Of a DNA stretch of 64,000 nt, positions 982-57,618 are shown one piece after another; the first letter of the stretch is position 1, and every line of letters begins with the position of its first letter. The position numbers and the translations under genes were made by a program. The stretch comes from Candidatus Babeliales bacterium (GTDB lineage: Bacteria > Babelota > Babeliae > Babelales > Vermiphilaceae), in NCBI GenBank assembly GCA_963743635.1, contig CAVUQO010000003.1:480001-544000 (forward strand), read 5' to 3'. The notes beneath the pieces are model-generated. The model did no database searches, was not told the DNA's origin, and saw only the letters and a program-made list of their open reading frames with translations.

Positions 982-1830
982 ATGAAGAATATCATTGCAT
1001 GCATAGTACTGGTGCTTTATATCCCTTGCATAAGCGCTATGGATCTCTTGCTGCATGCCGCTATAAATGCAAAAAATGGTTACGGCATGGCATTAATGCA
1101 GGGTCGTCGTAAAACGATGGAAGATCGGGCTGAATGTCATTGGGAGTATAATGATAATGATCGCGATCATGAATTCTATGCCGTGTATGATGGCCATGGT
1201 GGTTCCGGGTTGCTCTTATAGCGCAATATATGATGCGCAAAGTGTGTCGCCTTGATCAAGCCGAAACGGATGAGCGATTAAGGATGCATTGCAAACAGGT
1301 TTTTTGACGTTGCATAATAATCTTGGACCTAGGGTAAACACTATGGGTTCTACCGCAACGGTAGCTGTCATCAAAAATGCAAAAATATTTGTTGCCAATG
1401 CTGGTGATTCTCGTGCCGTCCTCTGCCGGGACGGAGAAGCGATACCACTTTCAAAAGATCATAAGCCATCGAGGCAGATGAAGTGGCAGCGTATCATAAA
1501 AGCATTTGGGCTATGTGACGTGGTTCTTGGAGATCGTGTTCAGGGCGTCTTAGCGGTTTCTCGTGCTTTAGGCGATAAAGTATTAAATCCTTACGTAATT
1601 CCAGAGCCAGAGATTACGCAGACAAGAGTAGATCCGCAGCATGAATTTTTGATTCTTGCATGCGATGGTGTATGGGATGTTTTTCTAGTCAAGAAGCAGT
1701 GAATAATGTAAGAGAGCACTCAAAGTAAAGCCAGGTGATTGTGAAATGCGGCTACAAGCATTAATAGAATGCGGCATTAAGCACTACAAGGCAGCAGGAT
1801 AATATTAGTGTTATTGTTGTCGGATCTTAA
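982..1830 (+). CDS. Secreted PP2C/PPM-type Ser/Thr phosphatase, eukaryote-like, frameshifted in this assembly
   Basis: Signal peptide, then QGRRKTMED, VYDGHGG, GSTA, ANAGDSRAVL, DHKP, LAVSRALGD, ILACDGVWDV and terminal DNISVIVV, spread over at least three frames. Confidence 0.88.
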
Positions 1831-1860
1831 GCACAATAACAGTCATAGCTAATAATATAA

Positions 1861-1900
1861 AAAAGGCGGCCTCAGACATTAATCTGAGGGCGCCTTAATT
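1861..1900. terminator. Bidirectional intrinsic terminator between PP2C and gltX
   Basis: AAGGCGgCCTCAGA-loop-TCTGAGGgCGCCTT hairpin between convergent genes. Confidence 0.65.
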
Positions 1901-1912
1901 ATTTTGATAAGG

Positions 1913-3349
1913 TTATGCAACCATCTTCAATCGCTTGCGCGCTTCATCGGTACCAAGCATGGTGATCAGTTCAAGAATCCCAGGGCCTTGTGGGGCATCC
2001 ATCAATGCAATACGCAGATACGTAAAAAATGTTTGATTGAGATGCTGGTGAGCTTTGCTTCACGTTTAATGTTTTCAACAAACAGTTTCGCATCATCAAT
2101 TTCAGGAAGATGTTTTGCAACCAATGCATTGAGCTCAGCCATCACTTCATGCGGAATGTGTTCTTTGAGCAGTGCGGCAGTGTTTTGCGGCGCATTGAAA
2201 TAGAAGTTCAGCAAATGCACTACGTCTTTCAAGCAGATGATATCAGTCTTGATCGTTTGAATGAGTGTGGTTAGTGTTTCATCGCTGAGCGTAGCTGCTT
2301 GCGGGATATGCGGCAAAGATAAATGGTTTGCGTATGCGGTGAGCGTGCAGGCTCAAGACGTTCAATCCATTTATGATTGATCCAGCGCAATTTTTCAACG
2401 TCGTATCTAATATGGCCAGTGCTGCTGATATTATCAAAATTATATGCCTGTGCGAGTTCAGGCAAGTGGACATAATTTCTTCTGCAAAAACGCCGCCACC
2501 AATAATCGTTAGATAATTTAAAATTGCTTCAGGCAAATATCCAGCATTTTGCAAATCATCGAGTGCAAATCCAAAATCACGTTTTGATAGTTTCTTGCCA
2601 TCGATATTACATATGATCGGTAAATGATAGTAGATCGGCAGTTTGAGTTTATAGATTGTATAGAGCGCTGCTTGACCAGCAGTGTTACTCAAATGATCTT
2701 CACCGCGGAATATGTGCGTAATTTTCATAAGCATATCATCGACGAAGTTGGCAAACATGAAGGTAAAGCTGCCATCTTGGCGAGTGATTGCAAAATCAGA
2801 AAAGTTTTTAAGTTCGAAGTTAATGTCGCCATGGCCGAGATCATGAATGGTGATCGTTTGGTCATGATCCAGCTTTACGCGCCAAATAAATGGCACTTTT
2901 TCTGCAAGCAGTTCCGTAATCTCTTCTTTAGATTTATGAAGGCAGGTGCGATCATAGCGTGGCGGTTGCTTGAGTGTGATTTGGCGTTGACGCTTTTTTT
3001 CAAGATCTTCGGTGGTGCAAAAGCAACGATATATTGCGCCTAGATCTTCAAGGTGATGAATTTGCTCTTGATAGAGATCAGTACGTTGGGATTGGAAGTA
3101 TGGCGCATAGGGTCCGCCTTGAATGGGGCCTTCATCGGGTGTTAAGCCAAGCCAGTTAAGATCATGAATAATTTTCTGTGCATTAGGATCGCAGTTGCGT
3201 TCTACATCGGTATCTTCAATGCGAAGTACAAAAGTACCATGATTTTTATGGGCAAACAGATAATTCATTAATGCAGCGCGGACGTTTCCAAGATGCATGA
3301 GGCCTGTTGGCGAGGGAGCAAAACGAACACGAGGGACAATAGGGTCCAT
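1913..3349 (-). CDS. gltX: Glutamate--tRNA ligase (frameshifted about three times in the 3' third)
   Basis: RVRFAPSPTG, HLGN (HIGH), LRIEDTD, KLSKR (KMSKS); C-terminus YLRIALM..QGPGI in a further frame; GGAG SD before ATG 3349. Confidence 0.93.
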
Positions 3350-3505
3350 TGCGATCTCCAATGATAATCAGATAATTCAGATAGATTATAGAGATAGTGT
3401 AACCGTAAAGGATTTATACGTCCAGTGCATGACTTTTTTGACACATGCCGGGATGTTTTGATAAGGTGTGGTTTATTAAAAAAAGAGAGTAGATAAGGAG
3501 CTTTC

Positions 3506-4400: not shown

Positions 4401-7334
4401 GTGAAGAGACGTTTCATATCATATCTGCTGTGTGCCGGAGGCATACTTCTGACTACTCTCACGATGAGTGTCAGGGGGATGGATGAGCATGACGTCGACC
4501 AATCACAGTTCATTGAATTTACGATTGATGCAAATCATACCGATTACGCCGAAATTATTGATCACGCGTTCACGGAACCGTTCTTTCTTAAAACTCTGAC
4601 CTATGAAAGTGATGTACTTTTCCAGGAAGTAGAATTTCGCTATTTAATGGATATGCCTGAAAATACGGAGGTAACGCCCGCGCAGCTCAAGCAGGGATTA
4701 TCCTATCTTATGAAAAAGCGCCAGTTTGAGGAGGTCACCGTTTCTTTAAGGCGGGGGACAGAGGGTTGTCATGTGCATGTGCAGATCAAAGGCGGCTGGA
4801 TCTTATACAAATTAGTCCTCCATGGCATTTTGCTCGGCAAGGATCGCTATCGTCAATATTACACCATGGAGTCGGGCGAATTATTTGATAATGCAGCGCA
4901 TCAACGATCATTACAAAAAATGAAAGAGGCGTTTGCGCAGCAAGGTTATTTTGATGCGCGGGTAGAAAGTCGTCTTGATTATGATGAGCCAGCTAAAGCG
5001 GTTACCGTGCATGTATGGCTCGGGCATAATAAGCAATTCACGATTCAGGGTGTTGCGCTTGATATACAGGGTGAGGTGTACGTCGATGCAGAGGAAAAAG
5101 AGCTTTTACAGACAAAAATTAAGAAACAGTTTTTGCAAAAATTGGAAAAAGCAGCATACACCAAGCAGCTGATTAATGATCAGTGCGCTGAGCTGAAACG
5201 ATATCTGGCGCGTGAAGGGTATGTGAATGTTGATATTGAGTTGACGGAAAAGATAGAGCGAGATCATCATGCTATTGCGCTGACCTTGATCATTCGTTTG
5301 CATAAAAAACGATTATTTGTGTTTGTGGGTAACTCATTCTTTTCACATGATCAGCTTCTTGATAGCACGTTAGTCTTTGGACGCTCTTCTTCTTTATTAC
5401 CTGCATCGTTTTTATCTGAAGAGATTATAAAAATGTATAAAAATAAGGGGTTTTGGGATGTAACGGTTGAATCGCGCGAAGAGCAAGATCGTTATTTTTT
5501 CATCATTCAAGAGGGGCAGCGCGCTCGTATAACGGACGTGCACTGCTCTGGTATATCTCATATTTCAAATCTTGATCTGAATAAACGCTACTTTACCGAG
5601 TTGCTTAAAGCAGGCTGGTATGATGAAGAGATGATTAAACATGCGCTCGACGATTTGGTTGATTGGTATATTAAAGAAGGATTTCTTGAATGCCGCATTG
5701 TAAAGCGTGACTATGTTCCGCGCGATGATCATTGCTATCAGTTGGCAATAGTGCTTGATGAAGGAACGCGCAGTTATTTTCATGACGTGATTATTGAGGG
5801 ATATCCTGCATTGCATGATATGCTTCCTTTTCGTGCAATCACGAGTAAAAAAGAGCGTATTCCTTTCAATATGCAACTGGTGCAGGCACAGCGAGTTTGG
5901 CTGCTGAATTATTTTCGTGCACAAGGATATCTCACGATAGATTTAAATCCGGATATCACGAGAGATGGCGATGCAGTGACATTGCGATGGCGGGTTGATA
6001 CTGGTGCGGAAGAAGCGGTACGCTTTGGTAAGGTTGTGGTGCAAGGTGCTGGTAACTTCCCGTTCAATTATCTGTTGCGAGAAATGAATTTTAAACAGGG
6101 CGAACTCTGGGATCGCAATAAAATTAAAAATTCATCAGAAAAAATTAAAAAATTAAATGCTTTTGACTCAGTGCATATGCAGCCGTATGACGTTGTAAAA
6201 CATGAGCGTGAAAAGGCGATCATGGTAAAAGTGCAGCCAGATGAACGCTATGAGATTCGTACGCGTGCCGGGTTTGCAATGCAGCAAGTGAGTAAAGAGT
6301 TTAGTTTTTATAAAATGACCTATCGAGCGGGTGGATCATTCTGGATAAAAAATCCATTCAATTGCGGTGACCGCCTAGGATTGGATGTTGATGCCTCGTT
6401 TGCCGAGCGTAAGCTCGTAGCGGAGTATCGTAGGCCATGGTTAGGATCGGTACCGATAGAAACCGTCGTGCAGGCTTATAGTAACCAGTTTCAGCAGCCA
6501 GGTGCTGTGGGTAATCGTAAAAACCTCTATCAAGTGAATCAAACTGGCAGTCTGTTTGGACTGCGCAAGGAATATGAGCATATTAATGGGGGTGGCAATA
6601 TCGGTTTTGAATGGATGGAAACCAAAATTAGCAAAAGCGAGCAGTTTGCTGATCGAGTAGCAGTTGCTATTAATTTTGAGCCGGACTTGGTTGATAAAAG
6701 AATTCCCTATTTCACGTTTGAGCCAACCGTAACCGTTGATTACGTGGATAATCGCCTGACTCCAAGAAAGGGGGTATTTATGCTGTATAGCATTAAAGGG
6801 ATGATTCCCGTAGATCGGTTAGGTTTGCAGGGTTATTTTGTGCGCATGCTGCTTGAGCAGTCATTTTATGTGCCCTATGATCCGATTGTATTCGCGTTTC
6901 GCGTGCGGCTTGGCCACATCTTCCATAAAGATTTTAGCAGTATTATGCCGTCAGAACGTTTTTATTTGGGGGGGGGCAATTCGATTCGTGGCTATGAATG
7001 GTACATGGCGCCGCCATTGGGGGTCTATCATGATGAAAAGCGAGGGCCGCAATATGTCCCGCAAGGGGGAAAATCGATGTTTAATATTATTCTCGAGGCG
7101 CGATTTCCTTTGTATAAGAAATTGGGCTTGGTGATATTTGAGGATATTGGTGCGCTCAGTGCGAATGCCTTTCGTGATATTCAGGAGCGCGGCGTCCTTT
7201 CGGCGACCGGCTTTGGCTTGCGCTATGAGACGCCGATGGGTCCACTTCGTTTTGATATTGGCTGGCGTTGGAAAGCTACCGATCCAGTACGGCCATCCTA
7301 TGCCTGGTTTGTAACCCTCGGACAAGCATTTTAA
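4401..7334 (+). CDS. Omp85-family (BamA/TamA-like) outer membrane protein
   Basis: Signal peptide, several POTRA-like GY/GF repeats, ERFYLGGGNSIRGY, GFGLRYETPMGPLRFDIG, C-terminal LGQAF. Confidence 0.9.
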   Translation: MKRRFISYLLCAGGILLTTLTMSVRGMDEHDVDQSQFIEFTIDANHTDYAEIIDHAFTEPFFLKTLTYESDVLFQEVEFRYLMDMPENTEVTPAQLKQGLSYLMKKRQFEEVTVSLRRGTEGCHVHVQIKGGWILYKLVLHGILLGKDRYRQYYTMESGELFDNAAHQRSLQKMKEAFAQQGYFDARVESRLDYDEPAKAVTVHVWLGHNKQFTIQGVALDIQGEVYVDAEEKELLQTKIKKQFLQKLEKAAYTKQLINDQCAELKRYLAREGYVNVDIELTEKIERDHHAIALTLIIRLHKKRLFVFVGNSFFSHDQLLDSTLVFGRSSSLLPASFLSEEIIKMYKNKGFWDVTVESREEQDRYFFIIQEGQRARITDVHCSGISHISNLDLNKRYFTELLKAGWYDEEMIKHALDDLVDWYIKEGFLECRIVKRDYVPRDDHCYQLAIVLDEGTRSYFHDVIIEGYPALHDMLPFRAITSKKERIPFNMQLVQAQRVWLLNYFRAQGYLTIDLNPDITRDGDAVTLRWRVDTGAEEAVRFGKVVVQGAGNFPFNYLLREMNFKQGELWDRNKIKNSSEKIKKLNAFDSVHMQPYDVVKHEREKAIMVKVQPDERYEIRTRAGFAMQQVSKEFSFYKMTYRAGGSFWIKNPFNCGDRLGLDVDASFAERKLVAEYRRPWLGSVPIETVVQAYSNQFQQPGAVGNRKNLYQVNQTGSLFGLRKEYEHINGGGNIGFEWMETKISKSEQFADRVAVAINFEPDLVDKRIPYFTFEPTVTVDYVDNRLTPRKGVFMLYSIKGMIPVDRLGLQGYFVRMLLEQSFYVPYDPIVFAFRVRLGHIFHKDFSSIMPSERFYLGGGNSIRGYEWYMAPPLGVYHDEKRGPQYVPQGGKSMFNIILEARFPLYKKLGLVIFEDIGALSANAFRDIQERGVLSATGFGLRYETPMGPLRFDIGWRWKATDPVRPSYAWFVTLGQAF

Positions 7335-12085: not shown

Positions 12086-12088
12086 AAG

Positions 12089-12288: not shown

Positions 12289-13152
12289 ATGAAGCTGTTA
12301 AGAAATATGATGATCGTGGCACTGGTGTGCTATGGGCAATCAGTGCTGGCCATGGATTTGAAAAAACTACAAAAGGATGTGAAAAGCGCATTGGGCATAG
12401 ACTCAAAAATGTCGCGTGAAGAGGTAGACAACATAAAAAAAATAGGCGAAGAGTTAAAGCTGCGCGTCGATGCAATAAAGAGCGATGGCCTCAAGAATGA
12501 GATAAAGAATATGACCGGGCCGAACCAACAATATCAGCTTGAACAGCTGGATATTCAAAGGATCGAGGATTACATCAAAACATATTTTAGTCGATTCGAT
12601 ACTGCTCTTAAAAACTTTAATGATGCTATTGTAATGCTTAAAGAAAAAAAGAACGAAAAAGCCGCAGAAAATATGCGGACACTTCTTTATAATCAGATAA
12701 AAATTGTGCTTGATGCAAAAAAACAAGAATTTAATGAGATTAAAAATGCATCTATAGCCAAATCTGAGGAAGCTAAGCAAAAACAACAAGAACTAGCGCA
12801 AAGAAATATAGAGGCTGCAAAACTAAAAAAAGAAGAACAGAAGAAACGAAGAGAAGAAGAACTAAAAATAAAAATGGCAAAAGAAGAAGAAGAACTAAAA
12901 ATCAGAGAAGAAGAAGAACAAAGACTCAGAGAAGCAGCAGAAAAGAATAAAACGCCAGAAGAAAAAGCAAAAGAGAAACAAGCACTTGAGGAAAAAATAC
13001 GTGAAAAGCAAGAATTGATTAATCGCTTGTCTGGCGCTCATGATTATATGTCGGAGCAACGTAGAAGAGATGCACAAGACACCTTAGAAAGACATAAAAG
13101 AAAGTTCCGTGAGAAATATGGCACTGATTGGGTGGAAAATACAAAAAACTAA
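12289..13152 (+). CDS. Secreted coiled-coil protein (tandem paralog 1)
   Basis: Signal peptide MKLLRNMMIVALVCYGQSVLA|MD; E/K-rich helices; promoter and 5' part closely similar to 13370 gene. Confidence 0.85.
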   Translation: MKLLRNMMIVALVCYGQSVLAMDLKKLQKDVKSALGIDSKMSREEVDNIKKIGEELKLRVDAIKSDGLKNEIKNMTGPNQQYQLEQLDIQRIEDYIKTYFSRFDTALKNFNDAIVMLKEKKNEKAAENMRTLLYNQIKIVLDAKKQEFNEIKNASIAKSEEAKQKQQELAQRNIEAAKLKKEEQKKRREEELKIKMAKEEEELKIREEEEQRLREAAEKNKTPEEKAKEKQALEEKIREKQELINRLSGAHDYMSEQRRRDAQDTLERHKRKFREKYGTDWVENTKN

Positions 13153-13369: not shown

Positions 13370-14215
13370 ATGAAGCTGTTAAGAAATATGCTGATTGTGG
13401 CGCTGGTGTGTTATGGGCAATTAGTGTTGGCCATGGATTTGAAAAAACTACAAAAGGATGTGAAAGGCGCATTGGGCATAGACTCAAAAATGTCGCGTGA
13501 AGATGTAGAAAAAATAAAAAATTACGGCGAAAAGTTAAAGCTGCAGGTCGATGCAATAAAGAGCGATGGCCTCAATAATGAGATAAAGAATATGATCGGG
13601 CCGAACCAAATATATGACTTTGATAGGGTGGATATTCAAAGGATCGAGAATTATATAACAACATATTTTAGTCAATTCGATGTTGCGCTTAAAAACTTTG
13701 ATGACCATATTATAATGCTTAAGGAAAAAAAGAATGAAAAAGCCGCAGAAAACATGCGGACACTTCTTTATAATCAGATAAAGCTTGTGCTTGATGCAAA
13801 AAAACAAGAATTTAATGCGATAAAAAATGCAGCTATAGCCAAATCTGAGGAAGCTAAGCAAAAAAAACGAGAACTAGCGCAAAAAGATATAGAGGCTGCA
13901 AAACTAAAAGAAGAAGAACAGAAGAAACGAAGAGAAGAAGAACTAAAAATAGAAATGAAAAAAGAAGAAGAGAAAGAACAAATCAGAGAAGAAAAAAGAC
14001 GAAAAAACAGAGAAGAAAAAGAAAAAAATAAAACGCCAGAAATAAGAGCAAAAGAGAAACAAAAACTTGAGAAAAAAATACGTAAAGCGGAAGAAATTAT
14101 TGGGGCCTTGTCTAGGGCTACTGATTATCCATCAGAGCTACGTAGAAGAATCGTACAAGAAGAGTTAGAAGAAGATCTAGAAAAGTTCAACGAGAGATAT
14201 GGGACTGATAAATGA
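13370..14215 (+). CDS. Secreted coiled-coil protein (tandem paralog 2); likely continues into 14199..14384 after a frameshift
   Basis: Collinear with 12289; its ERYGTD end aligns with EKYGTD, and ENRKK of the next ORF aligns with ENTKN of paralog 1. Confidence 0.85.
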   Translation: MKLLRNMLIVALVCYGQLVLAMDLKKLQKDVKGALGIDSKMSREDVEKIKNYGEKLKLQVDAIKSDGLNNEIKNMIGPNQIYDFDRVDIQRIENYITTYFSQFDVALKNFDDHIIMLKEKKNEKAAENMRTLLYNQIKLVLDAKKQEFNAIKNAAIAKSEEAKQKKRELAQKDIEAAKLKEEEQKKRREEELKIEMKKEEEKEQIREEKRRKNREEKEKNKTPEIRAKEKQKLEKKIRKAEEIIGALSRATDYPSELRRRIVQEELEEDLEKFNERYGTDK

Positions 14216-43051: not shown

Positions 43052-44050
43052 ATGGAAACGACACGTCCATCATATGCGCGCAGCGCATATGAAACGATAA
43101 AAGAAATTACGATACTCCTATTGATTGTGTTTATGATACGAACCTATGTTTTTGGGTTATATCAAGTGCCCAGCGGCTCTATGGAAAAAACAATGTTCGT
43201 AGGAGAACGATTTTTGGGTGAGAAATTTTCATATTTGTTGAGAAAGCCTTGCGCTGGAGAAGTGGTTGCATTCAATGCACCGACGTATCCTTATGCGTCA
43301 AATCCGATTCATCGATTATTTCAAGAATATGTATTGGGGCCCGATAACTGGACAAAGCGTGTGATTGGGGTTCCAGGAGATCATCTTAAGGGGGTCATTG
43401 AAAACGGATGTCCGGTTATTTATCGCAATGGTGAAAAACTGCATGAGCCTTATGTCAATGATTCGCCGTTGGTATATGTGTTGCCGGCAGGCGATCATGC
43501 ATTGCGCGCACAAATTGCCGCGGAATTATTACGGCAAGACTCTCCCGTTGCCCATTACAGTCCAGATAAAATTGATGAACTCGTTACGCAATTGATCAAA
43601 GAGCATATACATATTCTCAAGGATCATTGCACTCCAAAAAGTTATAATCCAGACTATTCAATCGAAGCACAACCATGGTATCGCATGAAAGATCTAACAT
43701 TGTTAGCGGATGCCCAGGGAAACATTGTGTATGAAATGCCCAATACGCCCCTTACTCATCATGATATGGAAATCAATACCAATAATCCAAACCAAAAATT
43801 TAATGGTTCCGATGAATTTGACATACATCTGGGCGCAGATGAATATTGGTTGATGGGCGACAATCGTTTAGGAAGTACCGATTCGAGATTTATTGGGCCG
43901 ATTGCAGGAAGGTTGATCCATGGTAGAATTGTATTTAGAATTTGGTCGATAGATAGTGATGCATCCTGGTGGTTGCTCGATTTAATACGAAATCCGATAG
44001 ATTTCTGGTCTCGTATTCGATGGAATAGATTTTTTCAAATAATTACATAA
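43052..44050 (+). CDS. lepB: Signal peptidase I (paralog 1)
   Basis: VPSGSME (Ser), KRVIG (Lys), GDNR..STDSR. Confidence 0.93.
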   Translation: METTRPSYARSAYETIKEITILLLIVFMIRTYVFGLYQVPSGSMEKTMFVGERFLGEKFSYLLRKPCAGEVVAFNAPTYPYASNPIHRLFQEYVLGPDNWTKRVIGVPGDHLKGVIENGCPVIYRNGEKLHEPYVNDSPLVYVLPAGDHALRAQIAAELLRQDSPVAHYSPDKIDELVTQLIKEHIHILKDHCTPKSYNPDYSIEAQPWYRMKDLTLLADAQGNIVYEMPNTPLTHHDMEINTNNPNQKFNGSDEFDIHLGADEYWLMGDNRLGSTDSRFIGPIAGRLIHGRIVFRIWSIDSDASWWLLDLIRNPIDFWSRIRWNRFFQIIT

Positions 44051-44065: not shown

Positions 44066-45004
44066 ATGAGCAGAGTAAAAGTTACCCGTTCAAAATTAAC
44101 TTCGGATATTATAGAATTGGCCTTCTTATTGGCGATTGTATTTCTAGTGCGAACCTATGGATTTGGCTTATACCAAGTGCCGAGCGGTTCAATGGAAACA
44201 ACGATGTTGGTTGGAGAACGGTTTTATGCGGACAAATTTTCATATGCATTTTTAAATAAGCCGCAAGTGGGAGATGTTATCGCATTCAATGATCCCCGAT
44301 TTGTCTACTCAAAAAATCCGATAAAGCGATGGTTCGAATATTATTGCCCTATGCCCTTCGGTATAGTTCCTGGTCCTGCTAATTTCACCAAACGTATTAT
44401 CGGCGGACCCGGCGATCATATCAAGGGTGTTGTCGAAGATGGCAAGCCGGTCATCTATCGCAATGAGCAGAAAATGGACGAACCATATTTGAATAAATAT
44501 CCGATTATTCTCGTGTTTAAAAATAAATCTGCTTCATTGATGGCACAACTTGATACGTTGGCTCGCTGTGGATTTGAAGGATGTGATGAAGATAAAATGC
44601 CATTCAGATCATATGATCCTAGTGTGTCTTGGGAAAAACAAAAATTTTATCACATTGATCCGGCAAATATCGTGATAGCACCAGAGACGGGCGCACCGGT
44701 CATCAGAAACCCTGGAGAGCCAGTCTTTGCCGGCACGATGCATGGCCCGCGCAATATGGATGAATTTGATATCAAGCTCGGTGATGATGAATATTGGGTT
44801 ATGGGCGATAATAGACGCGGGAGCGGTGATAGTCGGTTCTTTGGTCCAATCCATCGCACCAAGACCTATATTCATGCAAAAATCCTCTACCGCATTTGGT
44901 CTATAGATAGCGATGCCTGGTTCTGGGTATTTGATCTTATCCAACATCCGATCGATTTCTTTAAGCGCGTTCGCTGGGATCGCTTCTTCCAACGGGTAGT
45001 ATAA
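44066..45004 (+). CDS. lepB: Signal peptidase I (paralog 2)
   Basis: VPSGSME, KRIIG, GDNR..SGDSR. Confidence 0.93.
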   Translation: MSRVKVTRSKLTSDIIELAFLLAIVFLVRTYGFGLYQVPSGSMETTMLVGERFYADKFSYAFLNKPQVGDVIAFNDPRFVYSKNPIKRWFEYYCPMPFGIVPGPANFTKRIIGGPGDHIKGVVEDGKPVIYRNEQKMDEPYLNKYPIILVFKNKSASLMAQLDTLARCGFEGCDEDKMPFRSYDPSVSWEKQKFYHIDPANIVIAPETGAPVIRNPGEPVFAGTMHGPRNMDEFDIKLGDDEYWVMGDNRRGSGDSRFFGPIHRTKTYIHAKILYRIWSIDSDAWFWVFDLIQHPIDFFKRVRWDRFFQRVV

Positions 45005-47357: not shown

Positions 47358-47963
47358 ATGGCAAGTACGCATACATTTGTAGATGGTTTTCTGGATGTGC
47401 TCGTTCGTATGAACGTGATGAAAAAAGATGAAGCGCAGGCAGCAGATAAAGCATTTCATGATGCAGCAAAAGAAAATTTCGTCGATTTCTTGCTTGAAGA
47501 AGGGCTCGTTGATCGGGATGACATTCTCGTTGCATTGAGCCAGTTTTATCAAGTGCCATACTTTGATGTAGTAGGACATTTCTTTGAATTGCACTTATTG
47601 CATCAGTTTCCCAAAGATGTATTGCTCCGTAATGCATTCATTCCTTTGGAAGTGGATGAAAACATGCTCATAGTCGTTGCGAGTGAGCCAGATAATCCAG
47701 AACTTCTCAATATTATTGGTGAGTATGTTTCGTATGATGTTCAGTTGGATGTCGGTATTCGTCTTGATATTACCGATGCGATCAAAGAATATTATGAAAA
47801 ATCAATTACTGAGGTTGATGAAGATCTTGATTTGCGTGAAGAACGTCGGTTAGGTAATCAAGAGCACCAGCAAGAACTGCATGAGCAAGAGATTTTCTAT
47901 GGCGAAGATGAGATCGCCGAAGGATTTCAAGAAGTAGTATTTGATGACTCTGATGAAGACTAA
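47358..47963 (+). CDS. Stand-alone GspE/PilB N-terminal (MshEN/T2SSE_N-like) protein with acidic tail
   Basis: FLLEEGLV..DILVALSQFYQVPYFD, FIPL, LIVVASEP, ITDAIKEYY. Confidence 0.8.
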   Translation: MASTHTFVDGFLDVLVRMNVMKKDEAQAADKAFHDAAKENFVDFLLEEGLVDRDDILVALSQFYQVPYFDVVGHFFELHLLHQFPKDVLLRNAFIPLEVDENMLIVVASEPDNPELLNIIGEYVSYDVQLDVGIRLDITDAIKEYYEKSITEVDEDLDLREERRLGNQEHQQELHEQEIFYGEDEIAEGFQEVVFDDSDED

Positions 47964-47975
47964 TAAATAAGGTGA

Positions 47976-49148
47976 GTGCCATTCATGACATCGCGTGATG
48001 AAGAATCGATCGTTGATTTAGTTGATGCGCTCATAGAACGTGCGGTTCTATCGGGCGCATCTGATATTCATATCGAGCCATATAGAACCGAAGCAAAGAT
48101 TCGCTATCGTCATGACGGCGTGTTGCATGATCAAAATTCAATTCCCTATCGCTGTATGCAGCAGGTTATTGCGCGATGCAAGGTGCTCGGTGCTATGAAT
48201 ATTGCAGAGCGCCGCATTCCTCAAGATGGTAAATTCAATAAAAACATTAAAGGTAACTTCATCGACTTTCGCGTCTCCACATTCCCCGGGATGTACGGAG
48301 AAAAAGTCGTAATTCGTATTCTCGATCGTTCACACAATATGATCACACTCGATCATGTAGGACTATCTCCAGCGCTTTGCAGTTCATTTCGCGAACTGCT
48401 GCATAAATCAAGCGGCTTTCTTTTAGTTGCCGGACCAACCGGTTCCGGTAAAACTACCACCCTCTATGCAGGGCTTGCAGAACTTAATAATCATGAACGC
48501 AATATCATAACGCTTGAAGATCCGGTGGAATATGATTTGCCGGGCATTACGCAAGGGCAGATTCGTGCCGATGTTGGGTTCACCTTTGAGAAAGGTATTC
48601 GCGCGATTTTGCGCCAAGATCCTGACATCATCATGATCGGCGAAATGCGTGATACAGAGACGGCTCAAATTGCCATTCAGGCAGCATTAACGGGACATGG
48701 TGTTTTAAGCACGGTACACACCAATGATGCGCCGAGCGTCATTATGCGTTTGATTGATATGGGTATTGAACCCTTTCTCATCAATGCGGCCGTGAGCGGC
48801 GTACTGGCGCAGCGGCTTGCGCGTACCATCTGCACTGCGTGCAAAGAATCGTATCAACCATCAGCCGATGAAAAGGCCATGCTTGAACGGCTTGGTTCAT
48901 CGATTTCAACGCTCTTTAAAGGAGTTGGATGCACTGCATGCGATGGGCATGGCTATAAAGGCCGTATCGGCATCTTTGAGTTGCTCATTATCGATAGTGG
49001 ACTGCGTGCACTTATCATGCGCGATCCATCACGAGACGTGTTATATAAACATGCATATGCACAAGGATTCCGATCGTTAATGCATGATGGTCTTGAAAAG
49101 GTTGAGCAGGGCATTATTACCTTGCAGGAATTGGTACGGGTTGCATAA
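47976..49148 (+). CDS. PilB/GspE-type secretion/pilus ATPase lacking its N-terminal domain
   Basis: ASDIHIEP, ERRIPQDG, GPTGSGKTT, LEDPVE, LRQDPDIIMIGEMRD, AALTGH, CxxC..CxxC. Confidence 0.93.
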   Translation: MPFMTSRDEESIVDLVDALIERAVLSGASDIHIEPYRTEAKIRYRHDGVLHDQNSIPYRCMQQVIARCKVLGAMNIAERRIPQDGKFNKNIKGNFIDFRVSTFPGMYGEKVVIRILDRSHNMITLDHVGLSPALCSSFRELLHKSSGFLLVAGPTGSGKTTTLYAGLAELNNHERNIITLEDPVEYDLPGITQGQIRADVGFTFEKGIRAILRQDPDIIMIGEMRDTETAQIAIQAALTGHGVLSTVHTNDAPSVIMRLIDMGIEPFLINAAVSGVLAQRLARTICTACKESYQPSADEKAMLERLGSSISTLFKGVGCTACDGHGYKGRIGIFELLIIDSGLRALIMRDPSRDVLYKHAYAQGFRSLMHDGLEKVEQGIITLQELVRVA

Positions 49149-53030: not shown

Positions 53031-53909
53031 ATGCAAAATAAGAAATACATACTACTACTCAGCTCACTCATCGCATGCACCGGCATGGCTATGGACAATT
53101 CAGAAAACTCATTGCCTAAATGGGTCACATATTATAACAAATTTAACGCTCAACGTAGGGTGTGCGACCAGATATACGATGCAGTGCAAAATCTTAAAAA
53201 TAGAGGCCAATTGACGCCCGAAATGTTGTTGCCAAAAATGCAGGATGCATTGACATCGGGAGGGAGTGAGGAATTTAGACGTCTATTCCGTGCGCTTAGG
53301 AGGGTAGAATTGGAGATACAACCATTCCTTCAAATGAGGATTGATGATGCAGGTGGGCGAATAGCAACGATAGAAAAGACTCAAGAGCAATCGAGGTTAT
53401 TGAGTGTATGGACAGAAATGCCTGCAGTTTCCATCTGGTCCAAAATTTCGCTTGACGCATATAAAGAATGCAAATCAATAGTTATAACGGGAGACTCGGC
53501 ATGGGCAAAACAGGAGACAGATCTTGGTTCTTCTTTGCGCAATAAAGAAATTGAATGCATGAAGTGGAATGAGAATGCTACGAAATTGTTTTTATACATT
53601 AAAAATGGATATTCGCCGCTTACAAGTGAGTATTCGCCGCATGCATTTGATGGTGCAACTCTCGCGCCTGTTGATGTACATGAAACTGAACGAGTAACTA
53701 TTGACAAAATAGGAGAAATCACCAAGGGAAGCTTGGTTCCGACTTTTCAGGGTTATTTGCATACGTATTTTGGTCCTAGCAAATATAATGTCGATAGATG
53801 GATTACCATAGACCAAAGGGCGAACTCAAAGGCCGCAGAAATAACCATCGAAGATTGTCCCTCCTTAGAGCACATTGCGCACCATTTATGCGCAGAAGCT
53901 CAAAATTAG
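53031..53909 (+). CDS. Secreted hypothetical protein (degenerate propeller-like)
   Basis: Leader KYILLLSSLIACTGMA|MD; shares TIEK, VSIWS and C-terminal P..E.IA..L with the next gene. Confidence 0.7.
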   Translation: MQNKKYILLLSSLIACTGMAMDNSENSLPKWVTYYNKFNAQRRVCDQIYDAVQNLKNRGQLTPEMLLPKMQDALTSGGSEEFRRLFRALRRVELEIQPFLQMRIDDAGGRIATIEKTQEQSRLLSVWTEMPAVSIWSKISLDAYKECKSIVITGDSAWAKQETDLGSSLRNKEIECMKWNENATKLFLYIKNGYSPLTSEYSPHAFDGATLAPVDVHETERVTIDKIGEITKGSLVPTFQGYLHTYFGPSKYNVDRWITIDQRANSKAAEITIEDCPSLEHIAHHLCAEAQN

Positions 53910-54051: not shown

Positions 54052-55068
54052 ATGAGTGCTCAGAAATATAGAGTATTACTCAGCTTATTCATTGCATGCA
54101 CCAGCATGGGCATGTCAGAAGATCTCGTAATATGTCCCAGCATGGTACGCAACTGCATTGAAGAGTCGATTCAATGTGGCAGGTTAACGACGTATGATGA
54201 AATATATAATGCCTTAAACCGCTATTCTGCGCTTAAAGATGCAATCTGCGCATCGTATAAAAATGAACTTCATCAATCCTTAAATCCGCATGATGGCGCT
54301 CACATTGAATCAGTGACCATCGAAAAATCTGCAGAAGATACTGCCCAAACGTTATGTTTTGCGAGTGCTCAACAAGTTTCTATATGGAGCCAGGATAGTG
54401 AGCACGGAAAATGGGAAAAAGATTCTTTTTTCAAGATCAATGTACCATCGATACATTTAACGTATGCGCGACTTTTGAATGATTATCGTCTCATGGTTGG
54501 TGCGTATAATGAAAAAGGAAAATTCGCAAAATTATTATTTTTCAACAAAGATCAGAAGGCACAAAATCCCAAAGAGCCATGGCTGGGCGATCAAAAAATC
54601 ATAATTCCGGTCGTCGGTAAAATTATTGCTGCAGCCTTTTCCCCTCGTGGCCTGCGTTGTGCGATAAGTAGTCAGGATTCATGGAATGAAAGCGCCTATC
54701 ACATTCATTTTTTTCAAAAACAATATGCACTGTTACCGGATCCCAGCGAAGTATATCAGCACGAAGGTACATTTCCCCTCGATGAGCGCGTTGAGGATTT
54801 GGCATGGAAGGGAGAGGATAATTTGGTTATGCGGAAAGATGCCAATGAGTATCGGCACGTGCGCTGGCAGCATAACACTATATCTGAGCCATGTGACATC
54901 GTTTCACCGGATTTGAAAGCAGTTGTAGATCAAAAACCATTCCGATTGGGATGGCATTATTCAAAACAAGGTTCTTCTGTGGGGGTAGGGTATATAGCGC
55001 CCACGGTCGAAACGATTGCAGATTACTTGTATCACACGTATTTGGCATTCAAAGACTGTGATGAATAA
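54052..55068 (+). CDS. Secreted WD40-like protein, paralog of 53031
   Basis: Leader KYRVLLSLFIACTSMG|MSE; AAAFSPRG, VEDLAWKG. Confidence 0.7.
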   Translation: MSAQKYRVLLSLFIACTSMGMSEDLVICPSMVRNCIEESIQCGRLTTYDEIYNALNRYSALKDAICASYKNELHQSLNPHDGAHIESVTIEKSAEDTAQTLCFASAQQVSIWSQDSEHGKWEKDSFFKINVPSIHLTYARLLNDYRLMVGAYNEKGKFAKLLFFNKDQKAQNPKEPWLGDQKIIIPVVGKIIAAAFSPRGLRCAISSQDSWNESAYHIHFFQKQYALLPDPSEVYQHEGTFPLDERVEDLAWKGEDNLVMRKDANEYRHVRWQHNTISEPCDIVSPDLKAVVDQKPFRLGWHYSKQGSSVGVGYIAPTVETIADYLYHTYLAFKDCDE

Positions 55069-55107: not shown

Positions 55108-56370
55108 ATGAAGACTATAAAAAACGATTTTCCTATCTTTCATAATCGATCCAAAAAAGATCGTCTGGTCTACCTGGATAACGCTGCCACTACCCATAAG
55201 CCGTATGCCGTGCTCAATGCTGAGCGGGATTTTTACGAAAACGGGTATGCAAGCGTTAAACGAGGCATCTATAAGAGTGGCGAACGGGCAACCGAAGCCT
55301 TTGAGGCTGCGCGTAACCGTGTGGCATCCTTTATAGGGGCTGAATATCCATCTGAGGTGGTCTTTACCTCGGGGGCTACTGAGAGCATTAACCTGATAGC
55401 AAAAGCGTGGGGTGAGCTGAATATAGGGCCTGGCGATGAGATTGTAATCAGTGAGCTCGAGCATCATGCGAATCTCTTGCCTTGGCAACGGCTGGCTGCC
55501 GATCGGGGAGCCTTCTTGCGCTACATACCGGTCAGCTTTGATGGCACACTTAGTTTAGCTGCAATCGACGATATCATTTCACCACGCACCAAATTGGTAG
55601 CAATTACTGCCACATCAAATGTCGTTGGTACGCAAACCGATATCATGCGCATTATGCAACGAGCGCGCGAAGTAGGCGCTAAAGTGCTTATCGATGCTGC
55701 GCAAGCAGTACCACATCAAAAAATTAACGTGCAAGAATTGGATTGTGATTTTCTCGTGTTTTCAGGACACAAAATGTTTGGGCCGACTGGTATCGGTATT
55801 GCCTATATCAACAAAAAAATTCACCATCAACTCCAACCCTATCGTTTGGGTGGCGGAATGGTGCACAGCGTGCATATGTATGATGCTGAATGGCTTTCGA
55901 TGCCTCATATGCTTGAAGCAGGCACTCCGCCTATCGCGCAAGCAATTGGGCTTGTTGCCGCAATCGATTATCTTGAACATACCATTGGCTATGCAGCATT
56001 AGCACGTCATGAACGCGCCTTAATGCATATGCTCATTGATGAATTAGAAACCATTACTGGAATTACAATTTTAGGTCCGGTGGACGAATTGCGCGAATCT
56101 GCGCATTTATTAAGTTTTATTGTAGATGGCATTCATGCGCATGACGTTGCGGCATATTTAGATTGCCATGGCATTGCAGTGCGCGCTGGCCATCATTGTG
56201 CACAACCATTGGCACAAAAATTGGGCATTACCGCATCAGTCCGCGTGAGTCTGTATGCGTATAACACCCATGATGATATTCAGGCATTGCTGAATGCATT
56301 AAAGCAGTTGGTTATGACATTTCCAAAGAGCTTCACGCTTTCCTGTGATGATAACAGTCCATATGCGTAA
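55108..56370 (+). CDS. sufS: Cysteine desulfurase
   Basis: YLDNAATT, EHHAN, DAAQ, FSGHKMFGPTG, RAGHHCAQP. Confidence 0.95.
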   Translation: MKTIKNDFPIFHNRSKKDRLVYLDNAATTHKPYAVLNAERDFYENGYASVKRGIYKSGERATEAFEAARNRVASFIGAEYPSEVVFTSGATESINLIAKAWGELNIGPGDEIVISELEHHANLLPWQRLAADRGAFLRYIPVSFDGTLSLAAIDDIISPRTKLVAITATSNVVGTQTDIMRIMQRAREVGAKVLIDAAQAVPHQKINVQELDCDFLVFSGHKMFGPTGIGIAYINKKIHHQLQPYRLGGGMVHSVHMYDAEWLSMPHMLEAGTPPIAQAIGLVAAIDYLEHTIGYAALARHERALMHMLIDELETITGITILGPVDELRESAHLLSFIVDGIHAHDVAAYLDCHGIAVRAGHHCAQPLAQKLGITASVRVSLYAYNTHDDIQALLNALKQLVMTFPKSFTLSCDDNSPYA

Positions 56371-56372
56371 AT

Positions 56373-56404
56373 AAAAAGGCGCCCTTTTTGGGAGCGCCTT
56401 TTTT
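56373..56404. terminator. Bidirectional terminator
   Basis: AAAAAGGCGC-loop-GCGCCTTTTTT. Confidence 0.75.
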
Positions 56405-56433
56405 GCTTTATACAATCTTATTTCTTAATTGTT

Positions 56434-57618
56434 TTAGTTTAATGTTTGCAGGTGCTGAGTAAGCTTTTCAAGTTTCGCATCAACAGTGCTCAATTGCTTA
56501 TCAACGTTGTTAATTTCAGATTTAGCAAGACCAATATTGTTGCGGCAGGTTACGAGTTCAACGATGCGTGATGGATCAACCTGCAAAGATTTCAAGTTGT
56601 TTTCGCCGCCACTGATATATGCGTCGAATGCTTCTTTTCTAAATGGATCACCGATTATGTATTCTATCTGGCGTACACACATTAGATCTTTTTCATTAGT
56701 TGTGGCTGTGCGTTTTGCAGCAAGACGTTTTAGGCATTCCGCATGCGATAGCATTACGCCGTCTTCATTATTAGAATCAAGATATGCATAGATTTGTTGA
56801 GGATCTTTAATATCACATTTTTTCAAATTTTCCGTAATCGTTTGATCTATAAAACGTCGCTCAAAATTTTCTGCTGCACGTTCCATATAGCAGGTGTACG
56901 TTGTGCTAATAGCTTCAAGCGTTTTAATCGGATCAAGACCATCAAGGTTAGCATTGATAATTTTTCGTAAATTTTCAGGTAATGATTGTTGAGCCTCTTC
57001 AAGTGCTTTAGATGCATCCATAATACGCGCTACGCGAATCTTATTAAGTGTTGAGCGTTTATCATTGAGGGCCTTAAGGAGCTCATTGATAGTGTCTTTA
57101 TCATGATAGAGATCTTGCCATGCATCGTTATCTTGTTCGGGATTATCTTGCCCTGAAATTTCTTTGATAGAGCCATGAATTTTTTTGGTTAAGAACTCAA
57201 GGATTGCAGGGTCTGTGGTAATTTCTTCCCAAGTCTGCAAGTCATGAGCATTATTATTATTGTTGTTTTGAGCTTGATTATCTGATTGCGTAAAAGCTTT
57301 TTCTAGATCAGCTCGGAGCCGATTTGAAAGAGCGGCGATACGTGTAGCGATTGTAGCAGATATGTCTGAAGCAATAGCAATAGCATTGTTAGCAGTAGTT
57401 GCTGCAAGCGCGATCCCCATTGAAATAGTGGGCGCTGTTTGGATTATTTGATGTGTAGTACGCGTTACAATTCCTGACGAGAGAGATGCTTCAGGGGCTA
57501 TACTAGCCGAGAGACTACCGGTATCGAATTTTTTCTTAATAAGTTGGCTGTTGTCTTGCATGGCATTAAGAGCACATGCATAAAGCACGGTTAACATGCA
57601 CAATAATAATTTTTTCAT
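56434..57618 (-). CDS. Secreted helical/coiled-coil protein
   Basis: GGAGG SD; signal peptide LNA|MQD; Ala/Thr-rich helix, poly-Asn, C-terminal heptads. Confidence 0.8.
   Translation of the reverse strand: MKKLLLCMLTVLYACALNAMQDNSQLIKKKFDTGSLSASIAPEASLSSGIVTRTTHQIIQTAPTISMGIALAATTANNAIAIASDISATIATRIAALSNRLRADLEKAFTQSDNQAQNNNNNNAHDLQTWEEITTDPAILEFLTKKIHGSIKEISGQDNPEQDNDAWQDLYHDKDTINELLKALNDKRSTLNKIRVARIMDASKALEEAQQSLPENLRKIINANLDGLDPIKTLEAISTTYTCYMERAAENFERRFIDQTITENLKKCDIKDPQQIYAYLDSNNEDGVMLSHAECLKRLAAKRTATTNEKDLMCVRQIEYIIGDPFRKEAFDAYISGGENNLKSLQVDPSRIVELVTCRNNIGLAKSEINNVDKQLSTVDAKLEKLTQHLQTLN

What the first reader, a model, noticed from the sequence alone, without database searches (positions are those of the whole stretch)
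982..57618. Signal peptides that expose a new eukaryote-style Met-[DENQS] N-terminus on 14 exported proteins
Seen: the signal peptide ends A/G immediately before a Met in 982 (ISA|MD), 4401 (VRG|MD), 12289 and 13370 (VLA|MD), 14674 (AMA|MS), 20939 (ILA|MS), 22088 and 28125 (MLA|MS), 24621 (IGA|ME), 30141 (SEA|ME), 31945 (CCA|MN), 53031 (GMA|MD), 54052 (SMG|MS) and 57618 (LNA|MQ). This is about half of the secreted proteins here, spans many unrelated families, and includes most of the eukaryote-like ones (PP2C, RING, WD40). Established: Met is uncommon at +1 of SPase I substrates; MD/ME/MN/MQ are eukaryotic NatB substrates and MS is a MetAP/NatA substrate. Inference: the +1 Met is a sorting tag for host-delivered effectors, or lets them be processed like host proteins and avoid destabilising N-degron residues. 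A neutral alternative is that whole genes were captured behind a leader with their start codon intact. The Omp85 case is an exception to the effector reading.
Basis: partly seen in the sequence, partly recalled or inferred. Interest (0 to 1): 0.85.

Follow-up and report, generated by a model that had tools for sequence, protein, structure and literature searches.

The report
Methionine right after effector signal peptides
In this amoeba-parasite-type bacterium, and more weakly across its whole phylum, the export signal of many lineage-specific secreted proteins is followed directly by a methionine plus an acidic or polar residue, a conserved mark that ordinary periplasmic proteins lack and whose reader is unknown.

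Summary
All 14 starts encode a Sec-type leader ending [A/G] directly before Met-[D/E/S/N/Q]. That is about half of the roughly 27 leader-bearing proteins I counted by eye. The 14 reduce to 9 independent leaders.

- **Real starts:** Shine-Dalgarno-like motifs precede 11 of 14 leader starts and 0 of 14 internal Met codons.
- **Phylum-wide:** in 80 loci from other Dependentiae species the motif occurs in 25 of 361 leader-like proteins.
- **Class-specific:** it occurs in 19 of 139 locus-unique proteins but only 2 of 143 widely conserved ones.
- **Position-specific:** Met peaks sharply at +1.
- **Control:** an E. coli sample gave 0 of 30.
- **Distinct +2 residue:** it is D/E in 13 of 21, against 51 of 340 for other leaders.
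- **Conservation:** the Met is kept in 8 of 8 members of the 30141 family at 22-41% identity and in 3 of 3 orthologues of 57618. It is not kept in BamA.
- **Spread:** 5' leader modules are swapped between genes, and one module ends exactly on the ATG.

Best reading: a selected, cleavage-adjacent mark of effector-type exported proteins. Who reads it is untested. Two cases may be lipoproteins, and no trained predictor was available.

The parts
982..1044 (+). Leader (982-1038), Met codon 1039-1041, then Asp. N-terminus of a PP2C phosphatase gene that is broken into 982-1221 and 1289-1702.
4401..4484 (+). GTG-started leader (4401-4478), Met 4479-4481, then Asp. Omp85/BamA. The Met is not conserved in orthologues, and the public gene call starts at this Met.
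12289..12357 (+). Leader, Met 12352-12354, then Asp. Coiled-coil protein with no Pfam match. Part of repeat D6 (12258-12354), which ends on the ATG.
13370..13438 (+). Leader, Met 13433-13435, then Asp. A 75% identical paralogue of 12289. Repeat D6 copy 13339-13435.
14674..14742 (+). Same leader module as 12289, Met 14737-14739, then Ser, joined to an unrelated body. Repeat D6 copy 14643-14739.
20939..21013 (+). Leader, Met 21008-21010, then Ser. RING plus ankyrin protein. Repeat D2 copy 20903-21065.
22088..22162 (+). Leader, Met 22157-22159, then Ser. 791-aa protein with no Pfam match whose body is paralogous to the WD40 gene. Repeat D2 copy 22052-22214.
24621..24689 (+). Leader, Met 24684-24686, then Glu. 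This ORF (24621-24812) is out of frame with the WD40 ORF 24788-28096.
28125..28199 (+). Leader, Met 28194-28196, then Ser. HAD-type phosphatase family. The N-terminal module is shared with 20939 and 22088 and differs from that of its closest orthologues. Repeat D2 copy 28089-28251.
30141..30206 (+). Leader, Met 30201-30203, then Glu. In this family 8 of 8 members keep [A/T] then Met-[E/D/N].
31945..32016 (+). Leader, Met 32011-32013, then Asn. 98-aa protein with no Pfam match.
53031..53096 (+). Leader, Met 53091-53093, then Asp. The leader also holds L-I-A-C, a lipobox-like string, so cleavage before the Cys by signal peptidase II is an alternative.
54052..54117 (+). Leader, Met 54112-54114, then Ser. 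The leader is 73% identical in DNA to that of 53031, while the rest is at random level. It holds the lipobox-like string F-I-A-C.
57556..57618 (-). Leader (57562-57618), Met 57559-57561, then Gln. N-A-M-Q is invariant in 3 of 3 orthologues at 59-61% identity.
21775..22053 (+). 279-nt repeat D3, 92% identical to 24253-24531. It lies upstream of two different leaders (22088 and 24621) and marks the 5' edge of the swapped module.
24253..24531 (+). Second copy of repeat D3.
43052..44050 (+). Signal peptidase I paralogue 1 (Peptidase_S26). Candidate processing enzyme.
44066..45004 (+). Signal peptidase I paralogue 2, 46% identical to paralogue 1.
47358..49148 (+). MshEN domain plus T2SSE ATPase (two ORFs) of a type II secretion / type IV pilus machine. 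This is the only kind of outer-membrane secretion system reported for the phylum and a candidate reader of the exposed N-terminus (inference only).
   Evidence: for the literature

Best explanation
The 14 proteins carry ordinary Sec-type signal peptides. Their signal peptidase I site is followed directly by Met plus an acidic or small polar residue, so export exposes a Met-Asp/Glu/Gln/Asn/Ser N-terminus.

This is a selected motif, not a chance feature or a start-codon mis-call. It marks lineage-specific, often eukaryote-like ('effector-type') exported proteins of Dependentiae and is almost absent from conserved envelope proteins.

It spreads partly because the 5' module (ribosome site, leader, Met and sometimes a further ~20 codons) is copied between neighbouring genes.

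**Shown:** the sequence pattern, its enrichment, its class bias, its conservation in two families, and the module exchange.

**Inferred:** cleavage happens exactly before the Met, and the exposed Met-acidic end is read after Sec export. Which of these applies is open.
For: **Pattern and real start**
- All 14 leaders end [A/G] then M-[DESNQ].
- Shine-Dalgarno-like motifs precede 11 of 14 leader starts and 0 of 14 internal Met codons. In other species the figures are 14 of 22 and 0 of 22.

**Enrichment**
- Window: 13 of 28 leader-like proteins, 22 times the Met background.
- 80 other Dependentiae loci: 25 of 361, 4.3 times background and the highest of all residues.
- E. coli K-12, 150 kb: 0 of 30, with the cleavage sites I remember for OmpA, DegP, Skp and AppA recovered.

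**Class bias**
- 19 of 139 proteins unique to one locus.
- 3 of 56 with homologues in 2-4 loci.
- 1 of 23 with homologues in 5-19 loci.
- 2 of 143 with homologues in 20 or more loci.
- Fisher p = 6e-5 for unique against conserved.

**Position**
- In locus-unique proteins Met occurs 15 times at +1 and 0-5 times at each of +2 to +12 (p = 2e-7).

**Residue after the Met**
- D/E in 13 of 21, against 51 of 340 at +2 of other leaders and 29 of 284 second residues of non-exported proteins.

**Conservation**
- 30141 family: 8 of 8 members at 22-41% identity.
- 57618: N-A-M-Q invariant in 3 of 3 while neighbouring residues vary.

**Module exchange**
- 12289 against 14674: 73% identity upstream, 81% in the leader, 48% after the Met. 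Random pairs give 48 ± 5%.
- Repeat D6 ends on the ATG.
- The window's HAD phosphatase carries its neighbours' leader module, not the leader of its 62% identical orthologue.

**Domains**
- PP2C, RING-ankyrin and WD40 in the window.
- WD40 in 4 and ankyrin in 1 among 23 motif proteins elsewhere.
Against: - Cleavage sites come from my own crude heuristic. Its best site is not before the listed Met in 4 of 14, and its '+1' lists contain many hydrophobic residues, which signals false positives.
- Being unique to one locus is only a proxy for being an effector. It was judged within about 20 kb around bamA in each species.
- The Met is not conserved in BamA (1 of 9 orthologues).
- In the HAD family it is present in 4 of 12 and scattered on an unresolved tree.
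- Effector-like proteins without it exist, for example the ankyrin protein at 18704 and several WD40 and ankyrin proteins in other loci.
- 53031 and 54052 may be lipoproteins.
- Nothing tested identifies a reader of the motif. General avoidance of destabilising N-terminal residues was not robust.
- Only two families gave a conservation test, with 3 and 8 sequences.
Confidence: 0.5

Rival explanations
1. Neutral footprint of gene birth. Complete ORFs, some acquired from elsewhere, were joined behind an existing leader at their own start codon. The Met is a leftover that decays with age.
For: - Repeat D6 (ribosome site plus leader) ends exactly on the ATG and is joined to unrelated bodies.
- The 53031 and 54052 leaders are 73% identical in DNA while both flanks are at random level.
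- Motif frequency falls with breadth of conservation: 13.7%, 5.4%, 4.3%, 1.4%.
- In the HAD family the Met lies about 15 residues before the DxDD motif. By recall, that is where a cytosolic HAD protein would start.
- In BamA the Met is not conserved.
Against: - The Met is kept in 8 of 8 members at 22-41% identity, in an otherwise poorly conserved N-terminal region, and in 3 of 3 for 57618.
- The residue after the Met is D/E in 13 of 21, against 29 of 284 second residues of non-exported proteins, so these ends do not look like native bacterial starts.
- Module D2 carries the Met inside it rather than at its edge.
- A neutral join gives no reason for the cleavage site to abut the Met so sharply: 15 at +1 against 0-5 at later positions.
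Confidence: 0.2
2. The Met is a conserved second start codon. Each gene would make an exported form from the upstream start and a leaderless cytoplasmic form identical to the mature protein.
For: - This would explain conservation and the exact +1 position.
- The public gene call for the window's BamA starts at this Met (951 against 977 aa).
Against: - No Shine-Dalgarno-like motif precedes the Met in 0 of 14 window genes and 0 of 22 genes elsewhere. Random internal codons score 166 of 1805, and leader starts score 11 of 14 and 14 of 22.
- A cytoplasmic copy of eukaryote-like effectors has no obvious use in a bacterium whose only reported secretion route is Sec plus type II (passages read).
Confidence: 0.1
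3. Substrate preference of a specialised signal peptidase. One of the two tandem LepB paralogues would cut a sub-class of precursors with Met-acidic on the primed side. The Met would then serve cleavage, not later sorting.
For: - Two intact-looking S26 peptidases, 46% identical, sit side by side.
- Only one copy was seen where a related locus covered the gene fully (L063).
- A dedicated peptidase for substrates with unusual primed-side residues is known in Bacillus subtilis (SipW and TasA; start of the abstract of PMC10269814 in the listing).
Against: - No link between paralogue number and motif frequency could be tested. lepB lay inside only 3 of 80 loci, and two of those were cut at the locus end.
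- Conserved envelope proteins of the same genomes are processed without Met.
- No residue of either enzyme was tied to the primed-side pocket.
Confidence: 0.1
4. Inflated or mis-assigned pattern. Paralogy, lipoprotein processing and wrong cleavage sites would together create an apparent rule where there is none.
For: - 14 cases collapse to 9 leader lineages.
- Two have lipobox-like strings.
- My heuristic prefers another site in 4 of 14.
Against: - 9 of 22 independent leaders is still p = 3e-10 against Met background, and p = 8e-6 against the 6.9% seen in other Dependentiae.
- The same sharp +1 peak appears independently in 80 other species.
- Orthologues and paralogues support the site before Met where the heuristic wavers.
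Confidence: 0.05

Closest known systems
Canonical bacterial Sec signal peptide with an Ala-x-Ala signal peptidase I site
   Same: Positively charged start, hydrophobic core, and small residues at -1 and -3 in all 14. Two S26 signal peptidases are encoded in the window.
   Different: - Met at +1 in about half of the leaders here.
- My E. coli sample had 0 of 30 and conserved Dependentiae proteins 1 of 143 at the top-scoring site.
- The published frequency matrix (PMC2638155, additional file 2) could not be read, so the statement that Met is rare at +1 in curated sets is recalled, not seen.
[quoted passage not shown]
   Same: A signal lying directly after the signal-peptide cleavage site that governs the second step, out of the periplasm, through a type IV pilus / type II secretion-type machine. 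That is the only kind of secretion machine reported for this phylum (passages read).
   Different: - The TcpF signal is a longer segment specific to one substrate.
- Here the common element is two residues shared by many unrelated proteins.
- No binding partner or export dependence has been shown.
Lipoprotein export signal of Bacteroidetes, K-(D/E)2 or Q-A-(D/E)2 next to the +1 Cys (PMC5080379, abstract read)
   Same: A short motif rich in acidic residues immediately after the cleavage site, found by comparing surface-exposed with periplasmic proteins, which sorts proteins across the outer membrane.
   Different: - That signal follows signal peptidase II cleavage and a lipidated Cys.
- Here the site is signal peptidase I-type and the first residue is Met.
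- Only 53031 and 54052 might be lipoproteins.
Mature N-termini of Plasmodium PEXEL effectors (PMC10653839, title and start of abstract seen in the listing) and the Y/F/WxC motif just after the signal peptide of powdery-mildew effector candidates (PMC2886064, listing)
   Same: Intracellular parasites whose host-directed proteins are marked by what proteolytic maturation leaves at the new N-terminus, or just behind it.
   Different: Those are eukaryotic parasites with ER-based processing and different residues. This would be a bacterial counterpart if it proves functional.
Eukaryotic NatB substrate class (Met-Asp/Glu/Asn/Gln) and host modification of newly exposed effector N-termini. Recalled; no paper read for this.
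   Same: - 9 of 14 window cases have a NatB-type dipeptide.
- So do 8 of 8 members of the 30141 family and 3 of 3 of 57618.
   Different: - 5 of 14 are Met-Ser.
- By recall, NatB acts mainly on nascent chains.
- No evidence here that these proteins reach host cytosol or are acetylated.

Membership tests
Sec-type signal peptide cut by signal peptidase I | Positively charged n-region directly after a real start codon | tested here: met
   K/R within the first 7 residues in 14 of 14. Shine-Dalgarno-like motif upstream of 11 of 14 leader starts.
Sec-type signal peptide cut by signal peptidase I | Uncharged hydrophobic core of at least 7 residues | tested here: met
   All 14 pass the core test of my script (mean Kyte-Doolittle hydropathy at least 1.7, no D/E/K/R).
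Sec-type signal peptide cut by signal peptidase I | Small residue at -1, small or aliphatic residue at -3, no Pro at +1, relative to the proposed site before the Met | tested here: met
   -1 is A in 12 and G in 2. -3 is I, V, V, V, A, I, M, I, M, S, C, G, S, L. Met at -3 in 22088 and 28125 is unusual.
Sec-type signal peptide cut by signal peptidase I | Cleavage actually occurs at that bond | not testable with these tools
   No trained predictor and no proteomics. My heuristic, which ignores +1, puts its best site there in 10 of 14.
Lipoprotein signal peptide (signal peptidase II) | Lipobox [LVI]-[ASTVI]-[GAS]-C at the end of the hydrophobic core (consensus recalled) | tested here: inconclusive
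   53031 has L-I-A-C (fits). 54052 has F-I-A-C (near fit). The other 12 have no fitting Cys context, and Cys-free paralogues or orthologues exist for 22088 and 57618.
Second (internal) translation start giving a leaderless isoform | Ribosome-binding motif 5-17 nt upstream of the internal ATG | tested here: not met
   0 of 14 in the window and 0 of 22 in other loci. Random internal codons score 166 of 1805.
NatB-type N-terminus | Met followed by Asp, Glu, Asn or Gln | tested here: inconclusive
   9 of 14 in the window; 5 of 14 are Met-Ser. In other loci D/E follows the Met in 13 of 21.
NatB-type N-terminus | N-terminal acetylation by the host enzyme after delivery | not testable with these tools
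   Needs N-terminal proteomics of infected host cells.
Post-cleavage N-terminal export or sorting signal (TcpF signal, Bacteroidetes lipoprotein signal, PEXEL-type) | Motif lies at the N-terminus of the mature protein and separates exported from periplasmic proteins | tested here: met
   By proxy only: 19 of 139 locus-unique against 2 of 143 widely conserved leader-like proteins. Sharp peak at +1.
Post-cleavage N-terminal export or sorting signal (TcpF signal, Bacteroidetes lipoprotein signal, PEXEL-type) | Motif is necessary and sufficient for the second export step | not testable with these tools
   Needs reporter fusions and mutants in a cultivable Dependentiae-host pair.

The most novel reading that the evidence does not exclude
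The Met-acidic end exposed by signal peptidase is a short linear address tag. It would tell a bacterium that has only Sec plus a type II secretion / type IV pilus machine which periplasmic proteins to pass on to the host. Alternatively, it would make them look like freshly made host proteins to N-terminal enzymes such as NatB. On this reading a two-residue rule would pick out the effector set of a whole phylum of protist parasites. It would also give the long-sought substrate signal of a type II-like system in linear form.
Probability: 0.3. Interest if true: 0.85.

Novelty: new variant of a known kind. Interest (0 to 1): 0.72.

Why it matters
Dependentiae are obligate parasites of amoebae and other protists. 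A very large share of their proteins carry signal peptides: 44% of coding sequences in Chromulinavorax, and 79 of 126 ankyrin proteins in Babela (passages read). How host-directed proteins are told apart from periplasmic ones is unknown.

A two-residue mark at the cleavage site is enriched about tenfold in lineage-specific proteins and conserved within families. It would give a cheap way to list candidate effectors in hundreds of uncultured genomes. It would also give a concrete, mutable handle for asking how proteins leave the periplasm in a phylum with only a type II-like system.

There is a practical warning as well. Gene callers can start such genes at the internal Met, as happened for this BamA, which hides the leader.

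I found no report of the pattern. Seven literature searches were answered. I read passages of the three Dependentiae genome papers. Their supplements were not examined.

Tried and rejected
- **Curated background frequency of Met at +1.** The frequency matrix of PMC2638155 is a PDF/old .xls and could not be read. I used E. coli (150 kb only, 30 leaders) and conserved Dependentiae proteins as controls. The 6.9% in other Dependentiae against 0 of 30 in E. coli is not significant on its own (p = 0.24).
- **Orthologues of the window's motif proteins in the 80 bamA loci.** None were found for 982, 12289, 13370, 14674, 30141, 31945, 53031, 54052 or 57618. These genes are insertions into conserved synteny, so conservation had to be tested with protein databases.
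- **General N-degron avoidance.** Stabilising residues at +1 made up 52% against 30% (p = 0.001) at a lenient score. The difference vanished at a strict score (48% against 45%) and without Met. I rejected it as unsupported. D/E at +1 is rarer in locus-unique proteins (6 of 126 against 27 of 182, p = 0.005), but this test was chosen after seeing the data.
- **Tree of the HAD family to count gains of the Met.** It was unresolved, with 5 of 9 inner branches open.
- **Similarity of the mature parts of 14674 and 12289.** E = 0.014 on low-complexity sequence, treated as unrelated.
- **Retained eukaryotic start context (Ala codon plus ATG plus G).** Considered and set aside. By recall, D/E after the start is only about a fifth in eukaryotes, against 13 of 21 here.
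- **Hits not examined.** The long repeat proteins P0055-P0091 match only internal repeats, so their N-termini were not examined.
- **Closed collections.** The genome context of the window's close relatives (72-78% BamA identity, known only as proteins) stayed unchecked.

Full report
**What is in the window**

The window is 42% G+C. It encodes a mix of housekeeping genes and leader-bearing proteins with no Pfam match or with eukaryote-like domains.
- Housekeeping genes include gltX, bamA, a pot-type ABC transporter, metG, topA, a BatA-E-like operon, two lepB genes, a T2SSE-type ATPase, and suf genes.
- Eukaryote-like domains include PP2C, RING plus ankyrin, WD40, and ankyrin plus a kinase-like region.

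A scan of species-representative genomes with a BamA alignment returned 80 loci, all titled Dependentiae, Babeliales or TM6, or untitled MAGs. The best reached 46% identity, so the organism belongs to that phylum but has no close representative in that collection. Closer relatives (72-78% BamA identity) exist only as database proteins.

**Check of the observation**

Translating from the 14 coordinates gives the stated pattern in every case: start codon, K/R, hydrophobic core, [A/G] at -1, then Met-[D/E/S/N/Q].

The leader start is the real start. A Shine-Dalgarno-like tetramer precedes 11 of 14 leader starts and 0 of 14 internal Met codons, against 166 of 1805 random internal codons.

No trained predictor was on hand, so I wrote a crude leader finder that ignores the +1 residue except to bar Pro.
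- On 150 kb of E. coli K-12 it accepted 30 of 142 ORFs. It reproduced the cleavage sites I remember for OmpA, DegP, Skp and AppA. None of the 30 had Met at +1.
- In the window it accepted 28 leader-like proteins, several of them false (an ABC ATPase, a SufB piece, two VTT membrane proteins). 13 carry the motif, and the 14th (54052) was lost to a filter.
- Its best site is directly before the listed Met in 10 of 14.

By eye there are 14 Met-type leaders and about 13 others.

The 14 are not independent.
- 12289, 13370 and 14674 share one leader.
- 20939, 22088 and 28125 share another.
- 53031 and 54052 share a third.
- Nine independent leaders among 22 still gives p = 3e-10 against the Met background.

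53031 and 54052 hold lipobox-like strings and could be lipoproteins.

**Is it peculiar to this window?**

No, but it is much stronger here. In the 80 loci (1.49 Mb, 1282 ORFs of at least 80 aa):
- 361 proteins passed the leader filters and 25 carry the motif. Met is the most over-represented residue in that context, at 4.3 times its background; no other residue exceeds 1.7 times.
- I split the 361 by how many of the 80 loci hold a homologue. The motif is in 19 of 139 proteins unique to their locus, 3 of 56, 1 of 23, and 2 of 143 with homologues in 20 or more loci. Both of the last two are BamA, and in one of them (L010) the true site probably lies upstream.
- In the locus-unique class Met occurs 15 times at +1 of the best site and 0-5 times at each of +2 to +12. 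In the conserved class it occurs once at +1.
- Of 23 motif proteins scanned against Pfam, 4 are WD40, 1 is ankyrin, 1 is an MlaE permease (a false leader call) and 17 match nothing.
- The window's own motif proteins have no homologues in the syntenic flanks of other species. The block 12289-16372 sits between potD and metG, genes whose homologues lie within the bamA-flanking loci of other species.

**The residue after the Met**

It is D/E in 13 of 21 Met+1 cases in the other loci. The comparison figures are:
- 51 of 340 at +2 of other leaders;
- 28 of 124 at +2 among locus-unique ones;
- 29 of 284 second residues of non-exported proteins with a supported ATG start, where S, N and K dominate.

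So these N-termini do not look like ordinary bacterial starts placed behind a leader.

**Conservation**

- **30141 family.** A full HMMER search of cluster representatives found 7 homologues with intact N-termini (22-41% identity). With the window, 8 of 8 have [A/T] then Met-[E/D/N], although the leaders differ widely. The remaining hits are long repeat proteins matched internally and were not examined.
- **57618.** Its two orthologues (59-61%) keep N-A-M-Q while the core before it and the residues after it vary.
- **BamA.** Only 1 of 9 close orthologues with a visible N-terminus keeps the Met; the others have P, Q or D there.
- **HAD phosphatase family of 28125.** The Met follows the leader in 4 of 12, scattered on an unresolved tree.

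The Met is therefore strongly held in some effector-type families and incidental in a housekeeping one.

**Leader modules move**

- 14674 shares with 12289 the 60 nt upstream (73%) and the leader (81%), but is at random level after the Met (48%; random pairs 48 ± 5%). The repeat finder ends this three-copy family exactly on the ATG (D6). The mature parts are not significantly similar.
- 20939, 22088 and 28125 share a 163-nt module: about 36 nt upstream, the leader, the Met and about 20 further codons. Beyond it they diverge.
- The HAD body of 28125 has 62% identical orthologues whose leaders are quite different.
- 22088 and the WD40 gene share a 92% identical 279-nt upstream repeat and 70-73% identical bodies, yet carry different leaders. 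Both leaders end in A then Met.

Exchange of 5' modules is thus one way the pattern spreads. It fits both a neutral join at a start codon and selection for keeping leader and Met together.

**Weighing the explanations**

- **Chance, paralogy or a mis-called start.** Excluded.
- **Second start codon.** Lacks a ribosome site.
- **Purely neutral leftover start codon.** Explains the module edge at the ATG and the decline with conservation breadth. It does not explain 8 of 8 retention at 22-41% identity, the D/E bias, or the sharpness at +1.
- **Specialised signal peptidase.** Possible, since there are two 46% identical LepB paralogues. It could not be tested, because lepB lay inside only 3 of 80 loci.
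- **Selected cleavage-adjacent motif of effector-type exported proteins.** This is my preferred reading.

Who reads the motif is inference. Two precedents exist for signals sitting right after the cleavage site and governing the step out of the periplasm:
- the TcpF export signal, read by a type IV pilus (PMC10120004, abstract);
- the acidic lipoprotein export signal of Bacteroidetes (PMC5080379, abstract).

Babela is reported to have only a type II secretion system (PMC4378268, passages), and TM6 genomes share type II and type IV pilus genes (PMC4776705, passage).

The host-side reading fits the dipeptides: NatB-type Met-Asp/Glu/Asn/Gln in 9 of 14 here, 8 of 8 and 3 of 3 in the two families. 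It rests on recalled enzymology. The one test I could run, general avoidance of destabilising N-terminal residues, was not robust.

**Novelty**

The three Dependentiae genome papers report many signal peptides. In the passages I read they say nothing about the residue after them; their supplements were not examined. Seven answered literature searches found no report of the pattern.

I class it as a new variant of a known kind: N-terminal motifs exposed by maturation that mark exported proteins.

**Limits**

- Cleavage sites are heuristic.
- 'Unique to one locus' is a proxy for effector status and was judged on about 20 kb per species.
- Two families carry the conservation argument.
- The E. 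coli control is small.
- The published +1 frequency matrix could not be read.

Noticed in passing
2002-3361 (-), 32363-34610 (-), 47358-49148 (+), 50262-51065 (+), 982-1702 (+), 24621-28096 (+): Several genes, including essential ones, are split into adjacent ORFs by frame changes: gltX, topA, a MshEN plus T2SSE ATPase, a SufB-like gene, the PP2C gene and the WD40 gene. In topA the reading frame shifts near 34225. A 99% identical public variant of the 30141 protein is itself split (286 plus 86 aa). This looks like single-base indel errors of the assembly, or ongoing decay.
   Followed up: partly
43052-44050 and 44066-45004 (+): Two tandem signal peptidase I genes, 46% identical. Both have the SGSM and GDNR-type boxes. 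Only one copy was seen in the one related locus that covers the gene fully (L063).
   Followed up: partly
29125-29994 (+): A class-II glutamine amidotransferase domain is preceded by a leader-like segment that ends directly before the Cys of C-G-V-V-G. Removing the leader would expose what is, by recall, the catalytic N-terminal Cys.
   Followed up: no
18704, 31856 (-), 38484, 59255, 61120, 63674: Six of the leaders that are not followed by Met end in x-His-Ala. This may be a second, distinct cleavage-site habit in the same genome.
   Followed up: no
13194-13258, 14403-14467, 15120-15184 (+): A 65-nt element containing an inverted repeat (CAGGTGGCC...GGCTGCCTG) recurs downstream of the 12289-family genes (repeats D10 and D13). 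It may be a shared terminator.
   Followed up: no
4401-7334 (+): The public protein for this BamA begins at the internal Met (951 aa) and so lacks the leader. Several orthologues in the database are also called from internal Met residues. Gene callers therefore under-report leaders in this lineage.
   Followed up: partly
36503-42038 (+): A complete BatA-BatE-like operon: two VWA proteins, a TPR protein, BatD, and a TPR/SH3 protein. The three exported members have ordinary leaders without Met.
   Followed up: no
45636-45707 and 45792-45879 (+); 45880-46926: tRNA-Cys (GCA) and tRNA-Leu (TAA), followed by about 1 kb with no Pfam or Rfam match.
   Followed up: no
L005:5001-7969: In another Dependentiae MAG, three adjacent genes all have leaders ending in A then Met-Asp. 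Two of them are WD40 proteins. This is a small cluster like those in the window.
   Followed up: partly
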